DNA of 64,000 nucleotides from Tachypleus tridentatus (lineage: Eukaryota). The DNA lies in contig NC_134837.1 in the NCBI RefSeq assembly GCF_004210375.1, positions 252,489,964-252,553,963 on the forward strand, in the 5' to 3' direction. The notes beneath the pieces are model-generated. The model was not told the origin of the DNA and ran no database searches. It was given only the letters and a program-made list of their open reading frames with translations. Numbering within the stretch: the first letter of the stretch is position 1; each line of letters starts with the position of its first letter. The translations under genes and the position numbers were made by a program. Shown piece after piece: positions 47,301 through 64,000 of this stretch.

Positions 47301-48299
47301 TAATATTTTGAAGTAAATTACGGTGAAATATTTCAACATACGTCTCTATGACCTTAATGAAGGTAGCTTTGCGCGAAATTCAAAAAACAAAATTATCTTC
47401 GTAAATCTATAATTATCTCATTCCCTTCTAAAGGGCTGTATGTTTGTCATTATACATTGTTGTCTTCAAAGGTAGTTTCACGTTAAAGATAGCTAATTAT
47501 TCTCTTTTTCTTTTCGGCTTTCAGGAATACTTTGGGTACTTTGTTATAAGGGTTAGTAATTCTACGAACACATGAGTGGGACAGAGGTAAAGGTGTTGAT
47601 ACTGGTACTAAGAGTTTTTTAAAAATATGCGTTTTACGTTTGACTAGGAGTTTTCTTTCCTCTGCGTTCAGCCGTATTATATTATAATGACAAGGTCGTG
47701 TATCATTTTATAAGTTTTGTGATTTTTGTTTATTTTGTAGTGTCTGATATTTGTTTCTATTATGACAAAGCGAATGCATCGAACCCGAAATCTTTTTCTA
47801 AAACACCTGATATTAAATTTCACATTTAACAAGTTATAAAGTGGCGGAAGGCATACAGAGTGTGTTGTTAGAGAGAGAGCCAATTCCCAAAAAAATAATA
47901 TACATCAGCGACTGTGGCTTAGGAAAAGAGTTATTGTATATGGGTTCCTCATTTGAGTAATATCATGTTATTTATCTATTGTCCTCTTCATTAAGTATAT
48001 GATATACTACTTAATATATCAAATACATTTACATTTATTTTACGTCAATATGCCCTTAATTATAAAACATGTATTACAAAGATTGAGTGTCATTATTAAT
48101 TTAGAATTTTTATTTAGAGTTAGTCTGGACATACTAATCTGGCCCAAGCTCGTGGATTTACGGACGAAACTGTTGTTAACAGCAAGGGTGCCCAACTAAC
48201 AAAACAATCCACACTAGTTTTTATAAATAGCCACGTAAGAAAAGTGCATTTGATTAATTATTCTGATGACCAGATAGCCTACTGTGATTGGAAGAATTT

Positions 48300-48560
48300 T
48301 TTTTTAAATTTTAACTTTCAGGTTTTCTCCTGATTTCACTGCTGTATAGTTTCCTCAATATCTGAATAAAAGTTTTCGATTTTATCTTCTTCATTATCAG
48401 ATGATGGCGCATAAACTTGTGGGATAATTAAATCAGTGTTTTATCTAAATCTTGAATACGATTATACCATCTCGGACAAACCAAAAGCTTTTCACGTAGT
48501 TGCTTGATTTCTCTTTGAACCAGTATGAAGTAGGAGTCTACCATGCCCTCTGTGCATTAT
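48300..48560 (-). mobile_element. Decayed non-LTR retrotransposon (LINE) ORF2 endonuclease-domain remnant inside the duplicated block
   Basis: Minus-strand translation ..TDLIIPQVYAPSSDNEEDKIENFYSDIEETIQQ.. matches the widespread LINE AP-endonuclease motif (I.QVYAPT.D..EEE.E.FY..L....). It is interrupted by stop codons. The paralogous remnant lies at about 60925-61185. Confidence 0.35.
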
Positions 48561-50592
48561 ATATTATTCAAAGATCTTTATTGAAGTGAAAGTTTCCGAA
48601 GATTTCTTGTAGTTGTTTTCTGTGCACTATTGGCATAAAAACAGTTTGTCTGGAAAAACGTCGATATTTCTTTGTTCTAGCGTGGCCGTTTCTCTCAGTC
48701 TTCCTTCACATCAGATATCGCCTTATTTAGCTTCTTAAAATGCTTAACGTTGGCCGAATGGATGATATTGGTGTATCTCGTCCAGCAAATGCCATGAGAA
48801 ATCGTTTCTTCACGTACTCACGCCATCTTGAGGAAAAGAAACCAGTGGTTTCGAGTAAGCTCGAACCCGGTTTTATAGGTCGTTTGTGTATATTTTATAC
48901 GTGTTTTAGTTGCTTTTCAGTTCATCTAACCATTTTTACGTCCGATTTTGGTAGACCTATATTGAGTGAGTGTACACTCAACTACGCACCTCACTGGATA
49001 TTTTTCTTGCTGTCATGTCACTAATAAAGACTGTATCACTTAACGAGAACATGCCTAACCTCTTTCTTCCTCATTCAACTTAAAACTCAGTCAACTTTTC
49101 TGATTTAGATAACTCGGAAAATGTCCTATATTACCATATATGTATTAGATCTATTCTGAACTTGCTCTGAAATCAGTTTACCTAAGAATGTCACACCATC
49201 AGATCCGCTCTTCTGTGGTCTTTATTTTCTCTTTAATAATTATATATTTACAGGTCCTAGCATTAATATTACGGAGTCAAGTTTCATTCTGTTTATTCTG
49301 TCTAGTTCTGTTAGACTCGTTCTAGAAAAAAGATCTGTTTTAACGTCACTGGGATGCATGTAAACGTGAAAAAAAGAAATTGTTTTACATCATTGAAACA
49401 AGTTTATAAAAATGTATGGCAGCAACTACTTTGTTGAATATTATTTGAAAAATAATTATAACTTTCTATAGATTGATTTTTGGAAGAAAACTTACGTAGA
49501 CTTAACATCAGGTGGTCAGTTTTCTAAAGAAATTTGACCCGTGTCAGAAATGGCTAAAGAAGTCTCCATAAAAAAAAAGAAAGAACTGCTAACTATGCAG
49601 TGTGAGAGAAAACTGCAGGACAGAATAATATAAAAGTTACATTTGGAGTGTAGAAACGTATTCAAGGAAAACATAAATAGACTGAATATTTTTTTACATA
49701 TCAACTTGCTGAAACGTTACGAAAATAAGTTGGACTCGACAAAAGACAATTTAAGAGATAATACTACCTTAGGTGAGAGAAGAACGTGGACTTGTCACGT
49801 CAATCACGAAAACGTGTACTAGTTACGTATTGATGAAGCATTGCCTGTAGAAGCAAGTGATTGTGGGAAGATTCCTTGGGAGAAAATTAAGAAACAGAAT
49901 AAGATAGATTATGTGTAACTAGGAGGACCCATGGATATATGAAGAGAGCAGCTGAAGACAGAGATAAATAATAATGAGAAATGTGCCTCGAGTCTGTCTA
50001 AGAACAAAACACTTGAAGACGAGGAACATAAACGTTTTTTTTTCACTTTAATTTATGTATGGTTTCCTTTGACGTGTTCGGATTTAAGTGTATGTGCAGT
50101 GTTTGAAACAAGACTTAACAACTAAAACGCTGTAAGTTAAACACAACTCGATGGAAACTGCTTTGAAAAAGTTGTTTTCAACTTTGTAATGGAACCATGA
50201 TTTTCAGTCTAATTAGTTCAAAACTACCCTCTGAGTGTATCAGTTTACATTAGCGATGTTATAGGATTGGATGAACGTCTCAAACTGATAAACATAGAAA
50301 AAACACAAACATTCCTACATGTAACCTGATTACCGTAGAAAACATTAAACAGTGTGATCATATGCTTAATATTTTAGTAAAAGACAAATTGCTTATTAAA
50401 GGTACGTTCTCCTAGTTTAAATGTTCCTGCTTATTAAGCAGTATAAGACCAGGGCACAAAGTCTATTTTAAGTGAAGTCTTTGAGCTACATATCCAATAG
50501 GTGTTAGTCTCAATGTTTCCCTGAAGCTTTAGAGCTTTCGCATTCTTCTGTCATTTGAATCTATAAATATTTTTATTCAGCCGTAGCAGCAT

Positions 50593-50784
50593 ACATGCTC
50601 GCCCTTTCAGCCGTGGGAATGTTCGAATGTGATGATCAATCACACTATTCGTTCATAGCCCAATAGTTGGCGGTAGGTGGTGATGACTAGCTGCCTTCCA
50701 TTTAGTCTTATACAGCTAAATTAGGAATGGCTGGCGCAGATATTCCTCGTGTAGCTATGCACGAATGCGAAAACAAACAAACAG
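50593..50784 (+). mobile_element. SINE-A copy, 5'-truncated and diverged (inside dup copy 1)
   Basis: ACATGCTCGCCCTTTCAGCCGTGGGAATGTTCGAATGTGATGATCAATCACACTATTCGTTCATAGCCCAATAGTTGGCGGTAGGTGGTGATGACTAGCTGCCTTCCATTTAGTCTTATACAGCTAAATTAGGAATGGCTGGCGCAGATATTCCTCGTGTAGCTATGCACGAATGCGAAAACAAACAAACAG. Confidence 0.85.
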
Positions 50785-51239
50785 TTTTCTATTTTGACTA
50801 CACATTTCTTCAATACTAACTTATTATTTTTTATACCGAACAGTGATCTCATTTTATTTGGAATATTGTTAAATAACTAGTCAATATTTGGTTAATAAGT
50901 GCATTGCATCTGCTGTTGTACTTTTTTGTATCTACATTATCAAAATATATCAATAATGCTATAAACTATTGTCGTGAAGAAATTATTGTTTTTATGAATT
51001 TTCAAGTCAATTCGACTGGAGAATGACATATTGTAAATATAATATTCAGAAACTACCCGATAGATGGCGGAAATTACACAAAATTCATCTCTGTTGGAGA
51101 ATTTTATTTCCTGTTTGACCGTATTTATCTTTTCCCTAAAACTAGCTATCTTGTTTTGCGATCTTTTGAAGTTTAATATTTCAATTAAAAAATATGTTTC
51201 CATCGAAACTGTCTGTATTTCACATTTCTCTCAGATGTG

Positions 51240-63000: not shown

Positions 63001-63216
63001 GTAAAAGACAAATTGCTTATTAAAGGTACGTTCTTCTAGTTTAAATGTTCCTGCTTATTAAGCAGTATAAGACCAGGGCACAAAGTCTATTTTAAGTGAA
63101 GTCTTTGAGCTACATATCCAATAGGTGTTAGTCTCAATGTTTCCCTGAAGCTTTAGAACTTTCGTATTCTTCTGTCATTTGAATCTATAAATATTTTTAT
63201 TCAGCCGTAGCAGCAT

Positions 63217-63410
63217 ACATGCTCGCCCTTTCAGCCGTGGGAATGTTCGAATGTGATGATCAATCACACTATTCGTTCGTAGCCCAATAGTTGGCGGTAG
63301 GTGGTGATGACTAGCTGCCTTCCATTTAGTCTTATACAGCTAAATTAGGAATGGCTGGCGCAGATAACCCTCGTGTAGCTATGCACGAAATGCAAAAACA
63401 AACAAACAGT
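63217..63410 (+). mobile_element. SINE-A copy, 5'-truncated (paralogue of 50593-50784, inside dup copy 2)
   Basis: Identical structure to the copy at 50593, including GGGAATGTTCGAATGTGATGATCAATCACAC and GTAGCTATGCACGAAATGCAAAAACAAAC. Confidence 0.85.
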
Positions 63411-63864
63411 TTTCTATTTTGACTACACATTTCTTCAATACTAACTTATTACTTTTTATACCGAACAGTGATCTCATTTTATTTGGAATATTGTTAAATA
63501 ACTGGTCAATATTTGGTTAATAAGTGCTTTGCATCTGCTGTTGTACTTTTTTGTTTCTACATTATCAAAATATATCAATAATGCTATAAACTGTTGTCGT
63601 GAAGAAATTATTATTTTCATGAATTTTCAAGTCAATTCGACTGGAGAATGACATATTGTAAATATAATATTCAGAAACTGCCCGATAGATGGCGGAAATT
63701 ACACAAAATTCATCTCCGTTGGAGAATTTTACTTCCTGTTTGACCGTATTTATCTTTTCCCTAAAACTAGCTACCTTGTTTTGCGATCTTTTGAAGTTTA
63801 ATATTTCAATTAAAAAATATGTTTCCATCGAAACTGTCTGTATTTCACATTTCTCTCAGATGTG

Positions 63865-64000
63865 GGCCCGGCATGGCCAAGTGGGTTCAGACGTTCGACT
63901 CGTAATTTGAAGGTTGGGGTTCGAATCCCCGTCGCACCAAGCATGCTGGCCCTTTCAGCAGTGGAGGTATTATAATGTGACGGCCAATCCCACTATTCGT
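63865..64000 (+). mobile_element. SINE-A copy, cut by the window end (paralogue of 51240-51515)
   Basis: GGCCCGGCATGGCCAAGTGGGTTCAGACGTTCGACTCGTAATTTGAAGGTTGGGGTTCGAATCCCCGTCGCACCAAGCATGCTGGCCCTTTCAGCAGTGGAGG.. Confidence 0.85.

What the first reader, a model, noticed from the sequence alone, without database searches (positions are those of the whole stretch)
47362..64000. At least 4-kb direct repeats 12,625 bp apart: likely a 12.6-kb tandem duplication that would predict a second NAT/Tc1 unit just beyond the window
Blocks 47362-51376 and 59987-64000 are colinear at about 97% identity and run off the window end. Offsets of paired landmarks are constant at 12,624-12,625 bp. That is the signature of a tandem duplication of a ~12.6-kb unit.

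The unit contains a LINE remnant, two SINE-A copies, the Tc1-like pseudogene, the NAT gene, the WD40 exons and the intronic hairpin. If the duplication is complete, a paralogous NAT gene should lie about 12.6 kb downstream, near window coordinate 66.56 kb, just outside the window. That would parallel the tandem NAT paralogues of vertebrates.

A 3% divergence implies the duplication is not very recent. The direct repeats are also substrates for non-allelic recombination and copy-number variation of the NAT island.
Basis: seen in the sequence. Interest (0 to 1): 0.65.

Follow-up and report, generated by a model that had tools for sequence, protein, structure and literature searches.

The report
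Recent tandem duplication of NAT exon
A horseshoe-crab detoxification gene (arylamine N-acetyltransferase) carries a young, roughly 12.6-kb head-to-tail duplication, probably made by recombination between two SINE repeats, that most likely gives the gene a second, 99%-identical coding exon just past the window; this is an ordinary kind of gene-family growth.

Summary
Window 47363-51376 and 59987-64000 form one co-linear direct repeat. Identity is 98.5%, not about 97%. The offset is 12,623-12,625 bp and copy 2 runs off the window end.

The window is from a 275.9-Mb chromosome of Tachypleus tridentatus. The window's NAT exon (53901-54819) belongs to LOC143239667. RefSeq annotates an isoform X3 of that same gene whose NAT differs at 3 of 293 residues, and its exon is absent from the window.

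Exon 1 (35734-35846) lies outside the repeat unit. A duplicated copy would therefore have to be expressed as an alternative terminal exon, which is how X3 is annotated.

The S1|S2 junction lies inside an intact SINE that has no target-site duplication. Copy 1 begins with only the last 30 nt of such a SINE. This fits short-homology, Alu-Alu-like unequal recombination.

An 828-bp perfectly identical tract (P about 1e-5) suggests later gene conversion.

Verdict: an ordinary recent tandem segmental duplication and a new member of a known kind. Interest is low to moderate.

The parts
47363..51376 (.). Direct repeat, copy 1 (the part whose partner is visible in the window)
   Evidence: Single co-linear BLAST HSP with 59987-64000, 98.46% identity; difference list. 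No Pfam domain in six-frame ORF pieces. Lies inside the 18-kb intron of LOC143239667.
59987..64000 (.). Direct repeat, copy 2; runs off the window end and is still co-linear
47363..59986 (.). Inferred first tandem unit S1 (12,624 bp): intron segment, Tc1 remnant, splice acceptor plus NAT coding exon, and 5.2 kb of downstream sequence
   Evidence: Constant offset of 12,623-12,625 bp. Homology starts at 47363/59987. Only the first 4,014 bp of the unit can be compared within the window.
47363..47392 (+). 30-nt SINE 3'-tail fragment (X) at the start of copy 1: GTAGCTTTGCGCGAAATTCAAAAAACAAAA
   Evidence: Junction alignment. BLAST with the junction SINE hits 47363-47406 only over query positions 253-296. 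No TSD. Other tail-only SINE fragments occur in the window, e.g. 42519-42583 and 6370-6449.
59745..60016 (+). Full-length tRNA-derived SINE spanning the S1|S2 junction (body 59745-59986 is the end of unit 1; last 30 nt are the start of unit 2); proposed chimeric recombinant SINE
   Evidence: Alignment with 11 other full-length copies. Homology with copy 1 begins only in its last 30 nt. No TSD (best 6/8, null p=0.52), while 5 of 6 control copies have 10-12-nt TSDs: four perfect (p<=0.004) and one 9/10 (p=0.07).
48498..49325 (.). 828-bp tract perfectly identical between the copies; 48307-49487 carries 1 substitution in 1,181 bp. Candidate gene-conversion tract
   Evidence: Difference map and permutation test, P about 1e-5. 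No Pfam or Rfam feature that would suggest constraint.
35734..35846 (+). First coding exon of LOC143239667 isoform X1 (donor GTTAGT); lies 11.5 kb upstream of, and outside, the repeat unit
   Evidence: tblastn. Exact reconstruction of the 343-aa XP_076337126.1 from exon 1 plus exon 2.
53901..54819 (+). Terminal coding exon of the arylamine N-acetyltransferase gene. Acceptor TTTTAAG|G at 53901; X2 CDS 53938-54819, 293 aa; catalytic Cys81, His112, Asp130
   Evidence: PF00797 E 3.7e-10, 40.4 bits vs cut-off 22.8. 100% identical to XP_076337127.1. Splice reconstruction. Active-site motifs aligned to 4dmo.
52412..53700 (+). Tc1-like transposase pseudogene (frameshifted) in the intron, inside the unit
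   Evidence: HTH_Tnp_Tc3_2 E 1.1e-10. Weak DDE_3 hit, E 0.0098, in another frame.
58582..58757 (.). Near-perfect 176-nt palindrome (MITE-like hairpin) inside the unit
   Evidence: Inverted repeat with 70-nt arms, 94% complementary. DNA fold -71.4 kcal/mol, z = -18.
58913..59086 (-).
   Evidence: WD40 E 0.0016, 19.3 bits, below the 27-bit cut-off. No protein in the 5.8-billion database shares words with it. No other WD40 hit on either strand of 54.8-60 kb.
51240..51519 (+). Full-length SINE at the right end of the visible repeat. Its partner 63865-63992 is cut by the window end, which shows the repeat continues past 64000
   Evidence: Other SINE copies in the unit: 50587-50777 (+), 53549-53779 (-), 55789-56008 (-).

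Best explanation
The repeat is a young, head-to-tail (tandem) segmental duplication of a ~12,625-bp unit inside the Tachypleus tridentatus arylamine N-acetyltransferase gene LOC143239667.

The unit (47363-59986) consists of the distal part of the 18-kb intron, a Tc1 remnant, the splice acceptor, the single NAT coding exon and about 5 kb of 3' flank. It does not include exon 1 or the promoter.

Proposed mechanism (inferred): unequal recombination or template switching between two same-orientation copies of the abundant tRNA-derived SINE. One was a 30-nt 3'-tail fragment at 47363. The other was a full-length SINE about 12.6 kb downstream. This left a chimeric, TSD-less SINE at the junction (59745-60016).

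Consequences (inferred from the annotation):
- A second NAT exon lies at about window-equivalent 66,526-67,444.
- It is expressed by splicing from the shared 5' exon(s) as alternative terminal exon isoform X3.
- It differs by V14A, S114A and S132N.

After the duplication, a roughly 0.8-1.2-kb gene-conversion event re-homogenised 48.3-49.5 kb.

Shown: the repeat, its boundary inside the SINE, the exon structure, and the existence of X3.
Inferred: the position of the X3 exon, the full extent of unit 2, the recombination mechanism, and the gene conversion.
For: - Co-linear 4-kb repeat, 98.46% identical, constant offset, still co-linear at base 64000.
- The block is a composite of unrelated decayed repeats: a SINE tail, a partial SINE, and a full SINE with shared truncations. 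It has no coding capacity, so it is a segmental duplication and not a mobile element.
- NAT exon 100% = XP_076337127.1. X1 rebuilt exactly from 35734-35846 plus 53901-54819.
- Isoform X3 of the same gene has a 99%-identical NAT (3/293 differences) that is not encoded anywhere in the window.
- Exon 1 lies outside the unit, which explains why the copy is annotated as an isoform and not as a separate gene.
- Homology starts inside the last 30 nt of a SINE. The junction SINE lacks a TSD, whereas 5 of 6 controls have one.
- SINE sequence is only ~10% of the window, so a breakpoint there by chance is unlikely.
- Tail-only SINE fragments are common.
- The 828-bp identical run has P about 1e-5.
Against: - The sequence beyond 64000 was never seen. 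Only 4,014 of 12,625 bp of the unit can be compared.
- The X3 exon's position is inferred. It could lie upstream of the window if the shared 5' exon is further upstream still.
- In a textbook SINE-SINE crossover the upstream SINE would be full-length; here only 30 nt are present. That is short for classical NAHR, so MMBIR/SSA-type mechanisms are equally possible.
- The missing TSD is weak evidence. The junction SINE is old (~80% to its relatives), and 1 of 6 controls also lacks a TSD.
- An identical protein is also annotated at another locus, LOC143236513. Near-identical NAT copies therefore exist elsewhere, and assembly redundancy is not excluded.
Confidence: 0.78

Rival explanations
1. Partial, non-tandem segmental duplication. 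A segment of at least 4 kb starting at the SINE tail was copied and inserted about 12.6 kb away. Copy 2, with its intact SINE, would be the ancestral context and copy 1 the derived one. Homology would end before the unit is complete, leaving unique sequence between the copies.
For: Copy 2 carries the intact SINE, while copy 1 is truncated at 47363. That is also what a random breakpoint in a derived copy 1 would look like. The right end of the repeat is not visible.
Against: - A 99%-identical second NAT exon in the same gene model requires the duplicated segment to reach at least 54,819 in copy-1 coordinates (at least 7.5 kb), if that exon is the downstream partner.
- A breakpoint inside a SINE is a ~10% coincidence.
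- The junction SINE has no TSD, although it should have one if its two flanks were ancestrally contiguous.
Confidence: 0.12
2. Assembly artefact. Two haplotypes, or a collapsed and re-expanded repeat, were laid down in tandem, so the genome really has one copy.
For: Divergence of 1.35% with long identical runs is in the range of haplotype differences. An identical NAT protein is annotated at a second locus on the same chromosome, which hints at possible redundancy in the assembly.
Against: There are no Ns or gaps anywhere in the window. The junction would need a join through only 30 nt of shared sequence between a SINE body and a SINE tail, which long-read overlap assemblers do not make. Annotation supports two distinct NAT coding exons within one gene.
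Confidence: 0.07
3. Two insertions of one large mobile element, or the two LTRs of a giant LTR retrotransposon whose interior would be 51.4-60 kb.
For: Direct repeats of at least 4 kb at ~98.5% identity resemble young LTR pairs.
Against: - No RT, integrase, gag or transposase domain in the block.
- None found in 54.8-60 kb.
- The interior holds a host NAT exon with a working splice acceptor and a Tc1 pseudogene.
- The left end falls inside a SINE tail, not at an element terminus.
- The block is a mosaic of older nested repeats.
Confidence: 0.03

Closest known systems
Alu-Alu (SINE-SINE) mediated tandem duplications in mammals (unequal crossing-over or template switching that leaves a chimeric SINE at the junction); from established knowledge
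   Same: Direct same-orientation SINE sequence at the start of unit 1 and at the junction. The junction SINE is co-linear and intact but lacks a TSD. The unit length equals the spacing between the two SINE sequences.
   Different: The upstream partner is only a 30-nt tail fragment, so homology is far shorter than a full Alu pair. This is a horseshoe-crab tRNA-derived SINE. The third SINE expected at the end of unit 2 could not be inspected.
Vertebrate NAT1/NAT2/NATP clusters: birth-and-death evolution of arylamine N-acetyltransferases (PMC3601968)
   Same: Single intronless coding exon of ~870-880 bp (290 vs 293 aa). Paralogues arise by local duplication. Occasional interparalogue gene conversion is reported. 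Several paralogues sit on one chromosome.
   Different: The duplicate here is far younger (99% aa vs 87% for human NAT1/NAT2). It lacks its own first exon and is annotated as an alternative terminal exon of one gene. The lineage is a chelicerate, where NATs are essentially uncharacterised; only partial protostome ESTs are mentioned in PMC4447851.
Genes with tandemly duplicated alternative terminal or mutually exclusive exons
   Same: The duplication of acceptor plus coding exon within one transcription unit yields isoforms X2 and X3, which differ only in which copy is used.
   Different: Here the whole CDS is duplicated, not an internal cassette. Isoform usage is known only from automated annotation and not from inspected RNA data.

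Membership tests
Tandem segmental duplication | Two co-linear direct copies at high identity | tested here: met
   One HSP, 4018 columns, 98.46%; constant offset.
Tandem segmental duplication | Head-to-tail adjacency: homology persists over the whole unit, so unit length equals the period (12,625 bp) | tested here: inconclusive
   Only the first 4,014 bp of unit 2 lie in the window and are still co-linear at base 64000. Downstream DNA was not retrievable.
Tandem segmental duplication | Genes inside the unit are present twice | tested here: inconclusive
   A second NAT CDS with 3/293 differences is annotated as isoform X3 of the same gene and is absent from the window. Its coordinates were not seen.
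Tandem segmental duplication | Repeat content is a mosaic of host sequence and older repeats, not a single mobile element | tested here: met
   Nested and truncated SINEs are shared by both copies. No TE protein domain.
SINE-mediated (Alu-Alu-like) unequal recombination | Breakpoint inside same-orientation SINE sequence, with a co-linear chimeric SINE at the junction | tested here: met
   Homology starts in the last 30 nt of SINE 59745-60016. Copy 1 starts with the same 30-nt tail.
SINE-mediated (Alu-Alu-like) unequal recombination | The junction SINE lacks matching target-site duplications | tested here: met
   Best 6/8, null p=0.52. Five of six control copies have TSDs of 10-12 nt. Weak, because the copy is old.
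SINE-mediated (Alu-Alu-like) unequal recombination | Parental full SINE at the distal end of unit 2, carrying the right-hand TSD that matches the sequence left of 59745 | not testable with these tools
   Predicted at about window-equivalent 72,370-72,655, outside the window.
LTR retrotransposon (repeats as LTRs) | Internal gag/pol coding capacity and defined LTR termini with TSD | tested here: not met
   No RT, IN or gag hit. The interior holds a host NAT exon and a Tc1 remnant. The left end is inside a SINE tail.
Arylamine N-acetyltransferase (PF00797) | Pfam Acetyltransf_2 domain above the gathering score | tested here: met
   40.4 bits vs 22.8, E 3.7e-10. Homologues annotated as arylamine NAT in Limulus and Branchiostoma.
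Arylamine N-acetyltransferase (PF00797) | Cys-His-Asp catalytic triad | tested here: inconclusive
   GGSC81Y and NH112I align with the GGLCY and GHI motifs of 4dmo. D130 aligns to the LIE.VGFG region. The match is weak (E 7e-5) and no structure was modelled.
   One sub-threshold hit, 19.3 bits vs 27. No homologue of that ORF in the database. Nothing on the + strand.

The most novel reading that the evidence does not exclude
A SINE-tail-mediated intragenic duplication has turned a single-exon xenobiotic NAT gene into one transcription unit with two alternative terminal coding exons. Their only protein differences include two residues placed two positions after the catalytic His112 and Asp130 (S114A, S132N). 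If so, this is a nascent case of substrate-specificity divergence by alternative-exon choice in a chelicerate NAT family that is itself undescribed. It may also be copy-number polymorphic through NAHR between the units.
Probability: 0.25. Interest if true: 0.45.

Novelty: new member of a known kind. Interest (0 to 1): 0.27.

Why it matters
It documents the birth of a NAT paralogue in a horseshoe crab, with a readable junction that points to SINE-mediated recombination. It shows how a duplicate lacking its own promoter is still captured as an alternative terminal exon. This parallels birth-and-death evolution of vertebrate NATs (PMC3601968) in a lineage where arylamine NATs are essentially unstudied.

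In practical terms, direct repeats of at least 4 kb (inferred to extend to the full 12.6-kb unit) at ~98.5% identity are a hazard for short-read mapping and for annotation. They are also a plausible site of copy-number variation.

Nothing here challenges current understanding.

Tried and rejected
1. Retrieving the DNA beyond 64000. Exact-protein look-ups of X2, X1, X3 and two 88% paralogues all returned 'not on record'. A protein-guided scan and an exact 29-mer scan of the metagenome contigs found nothing.

2. Limulus loci L001 and L002. Only the NAT CDS (85% nt) and the SINE families match. L002 starts at the NAT, so conservation of the upstream block cannot be judged. No second full NAT lies within 10 kb downstream in Limulus.

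3. WD40 exons. One weak hit and no homologue; rejected.

4. LINE remnant. I read an endonuclease-like motif (QVYAPSSDNEEDKIENFYSDIEETI) on the minus strand near 48360-48470, but Pfam gave no support. It remains an unconfirmed lead.

5. A functional RNA or exon as the cause of the 828-bp identical tract. No Rfam family and no tRNA in the window, and no Pfam hit. Constraint is therefore not supported, and gene conversion is preferred.

6. A TSD for the 30-nt SINE tail at 47363. None found, so whether it is a 5'-truncated insertion or a deletion remnant is open.

7. LTR or mobile-element reading: rejected (see rival explanations).

8. The first six-frame Pfam attempts failed on stop codons. They were redone with ORF pieces of at least 45 aa, which could miss very short exons.

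
Full report
OBSERVATION

A self-BLAST of the window gives one co-linear alignment, 47363-51376 against 59987-64000. It has 4018 columns, 54 substitutions and 7 gap openings, for 98.46% identity. The repeat finder gives start-to-start offsets of 12,623-12,625 bp along its whole length. 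Substitution-only divergence is 1.35% (K2P 0.0136; 37 transitions, 17 transversions).

Copy 2 is still aligned at the last base of the window; the last difference is at copy-1 position 51360. The SINE at 51240-51519 has a partner, 63865-63992, that is cut by the window end. The repeat therefore continues past 64000. The window has no N, and no third copy lies upstream.

Identity is higher than stated (98.5%, not about 97%).

SOURCE AND GENE CONTENT

The ORF at 53743-54819 carries the arylamine N-acetyltransferase domain PF00797 (40.4 bits against a cut-off of 22.8). Its 293-aa product from Met 53938 is 100% identical to XP_076337127.1, which is LOC143239667 isoform X2 of Tachypleus tridentatus, on a 275.9-Mb chromosome.

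Isoform X1 (343 aa) can be rebuilt exactly from the window. Exon 1 is 35734-35846 (donor GTTAGT), the intron is 18,054 bp, and exon 2 is 53901-54819 (acceptor TTTTAAG|G). Repeat copy 1 therefore lies within that intron, and copy 2 lies downstream of the NAT exon.

- The Tc1-like pseudogene at about 52.4-53.7 kb is real (HTH_Tnp_Tc3_2 E 1e-10; weak DDE_3 in a shifted frame).
- The hairpin at 58582-58757 is real (z = -18).
- The 'WD40 exons' reduce to one sub-threshold hit at 58913-59086(-) (19.3 bits against 27). It has no homologue among 5.8 billion proteins, and nothing appears on the other strand. They are not supported.
- The 4-kb block has no Pfam domain in any frame. A LINE-endonuclease-like motif that I read near 48.4 kb(-) is not confirmed.
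- The unit holds five SINE copies plus a tail fragment, not two.

IS THERE A SECOND NAT?

The downstream DNA could not be fetched. The RefSeq assembly is not in the positional index, and two metagenome scans were empty.

The 90% cluster of the window's NAT does, however, contain XP_076337128.1, annotated as isoform X3 of the same gene. It is 293 aa and differs only by V14A, S114A and S132N. tblastn finds only one NAT CDS in the whole 64-kb window. The X3 exon therefore exists in the genome, on the same strand, within the same gene model, and outside the window.

The shared first coding exon is at 35.7 kb, and the 4 kb that normally precede the NAT exon reappear at 59987-64000. The parsimonious position for the X3 exon is thus about 12,625 bp downstream of the first one: acceptor near 66,526 and CDS about 66,563-67,444. 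This is an inference, because the coordinates were not seen.

It also explains the annotation. The unit (47363-59986) contains the acceptor and the whole CDS but not exon 1 or the promoter. The copy can therefore only be expressed by splicing from the shared 5' exon(s), that is, as an isoform and not as a separate gene.

JUNCTION ANATOMY AND MECHANISM

Homology begins inside the last 30 nt of a tRNA-derived SINE. Copy 2 is preceded by the complete SINE (59745-60016; B-box GAGTTCGAATCC). Copy 1 has only the tail, GTAGCTTTGCGCGAAATTCAAAAAACAAAA, at 47363-47392, preceded by unrelated sequence.

In a simple random-breakpoint tandem duplication, the first copy should keep the ancestral upstream context. 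An intact SINE at the junction is instead what a homology-guided event produces. On one chromatid a full SINE (Y) lies about 12.6 kb downstream. On the other, a tail-only fragment (X) lies at 47363. Pairing Y with X gives u - X tail - unit - [Y body + tail] - unit - Y - d.

Three observations support this:
- This SINE family makes up only ~10% of the window (31 hits, about 6.4 kb), so a chance breakpoint there is unlikely.
- Tail-only fragments are common, for example 42519-42583 and 6370-6449.
- The junction SINE has no target-site duplication (best 6/8, null p = 0.52). By contrast, five of six control full-length copies have TSDs of 10-12 nt, four of them perfect (p <= 0.004) and one 9/10 (p = 0.07).

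The third point is weak, because the junction SINE is old and one control also lacks a TSD. Thirty nucleotides is short for classical NAHR, so template switching or single-strand annealing on short homology is equally possible.

The closest known analogue is Alu-Alu-mediated tandem duplication (established knowledge).

POST-DUPLICATION HISTORY

Differences are unevenly spread. The stretch 48498-49325 (828 bp) is perfectly identical, and 48307-49487 carries one substitution in 1,181 bp. Outside that stretch, divergence is 53/2,829 = 1.9%. A uniform-placement permutation gives P about 1e-5 for the longest run.

The tract has no Pfam, Rfam or tRNA feature and looks like decayed repeat sequence. 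Selective constraint is therefore unsupported. An interparalogue gene-conversion tract of about 0.8-1.2 kb is the best reading. Homogenisation by assembly polishing is a lesser alternative.

The SINEs inside the block differ from one another by 20-30%, whereas the two blocks differ by under 2%. The duplication is therefore far younger than the repeats it carries.

With assumed neutral rates of 1-4e-9 per site per year (my assumption, not measured here), 1.4-1.9% divergence corresponds to roughly 2-9 million years.

RIVALS

- A partial, dispersed duplication remains possible, because the right end is unseen. It would still have to reach at least 7.5 kb to include the second NAT. It also does not explain the TSD-less SINE junction.
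- An assembly artefact is unlikely. The sequence is gap-free, the join rests on only 30 nt of shared sequence, and two distinct NAT exons are annotated within one gene. It needs long reads to exclude. XP_076330929.1 at another locus (LOC143236513) has a protein identical to X3, which shows that further near-identical copies, or redundancy, exist on this chromosome.
- An LTR or mobile-element reading is rejected.

COMPARISON AND VERDICT

Like vertebrate NATs, the horseshoe-crab gene has a single ~880-bp coding exon and belongs to a family that grows by local duplication. At least five related loci lie on this chromosome and one on another. The vertebrate pattern, including occasional gene conversion, is described in PMC3601968.

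The Cys81, His112 and Asp130 motifs are present. Two of the three differences between the copies sit two residues after the catalytic His and Asp. The A114 and N132 states also occur in the 88% paralogues. This is suggestive only.

Arylamine NATs are barely described in protostomes (PMC4447851), which adds mild taxonomic interest.

Overall this is an ordinary, recent, probably SINE-mediated tandem duplication, and a new member of a known kind. I put about 0.8-0.85 on a second NAT exon about 12.6 kb downstream, 0.78 on the explanation as a whole, and somewhat less on the duplication spanning the complete 12.6-kb unit.

Noticed in passing
window 1-880: 32-bp satellite (CAGTCTTCTGTTTCATTTGGATTGTATTGTTA), 27.5 copies at 95% identity and without indels. 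It runs off the window start and creates spurious 300-aa ORFs.
   Followed up: no
window 16867-17957: Degenerate 35-bp minisatellite (~31 copies, 69-74% matches) with higher-order periods of 105 and 140 bp.
   Followed up: no
window 35177-35400: Five copies of a 44-bp tandem repeat at 98% identity, ending about 330 bp upstream of the start codon of NAT exon 1 (35734). It could lie in the promoter or 5' region.
   Followed up: no
window 8672-11077 (+): Uninterrupted 801-aa ORF encoding a rhodopsin-family GPCR (PF00001, E 1e-58), with a very long insert between the two 7tm_1 matches (a third intracellular loop). It looks like an intronless biogenic-amine or muscarinic-type receptor gene.
   Followed up: partly
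window 30766-33025: A better-preserved Tc1-like element: a 250-aa transposase ORF at 31159-31911(-) (HTH_Tnp_Tc3_2, E 2e-21), flanked by ~385-bp inverted repeats at 30766-31150 and 32650-33025 (89% identity).
   Followed up: partly
whole window; e.g. 1919-2194, 29918-30196, 46199-46472: A ~272-nt tRNA-derived SINE with an (A/C)-rich CAAAC-type tail and 10-12-nt TSDs. It occurs about 31 times (about 10% of the window). The same family is present in Limulus polyphemus loci at 70-92% identity, so it is old and shared across horseshoe crabs.
   Followed up: partly
window 47224-47302: TA-flanked ~75-nt perfect-arm palindrome (CAGGGTGTTCGGAAAGTCACTGTGCA ... TGCACAGTGACTTTCCGAACACCCTG), a Tc1/mariner-type MITE, 60 bp upstream of the repeat boundary. 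It is not part of the duplication.
   Followed up: no
L002:1077-1304 (Limulus polyphemus KI904036.1): The closest Limulus NAT (75% aa, 85% nt) is followed about 330 bp downstream by a duplicated fragment of its own C-terminal region (aa ~207-282, 59-72% identity). This is an independent small local duplication at the orthologous family locus.
   Followed up: no
annotation level: LOC143236513/LOC143236544 vs LOC143239667/LOC143239727 (same 275.9-Mb chromosome): XP_076330929.1 (LOC143236513) is identical to isoform X3 of LOC143239667. Each 'type-1' NAT locus has a similarly numbered 88%-type partner. This hints at a larger duplicated NAT-containing segment, or at assembly redundancy, on this chromosome.
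   Followed up: no
window 54277-54279 and 54331-54333 (codons 114 and 132 of the NAT CDS): Two of the three amino-acid differences between the window's NAT and the X3 copy (S114A, S132N) lie two residues after the catalytic His112 and Asp130. The A and N states are also found in the 88% paralogues P0016 and P0019. This could reflect exchange among paralogues or active-site tuning.
   Followed up: partly
window 40001-42000: Local composition anomaly: GC 0.41, GC skew +0.23 and AT skew +0.22 (purine-rich + strand), immediately before a cluster of SINE copies at 41.8-42.6 kb.
   Followed up: no
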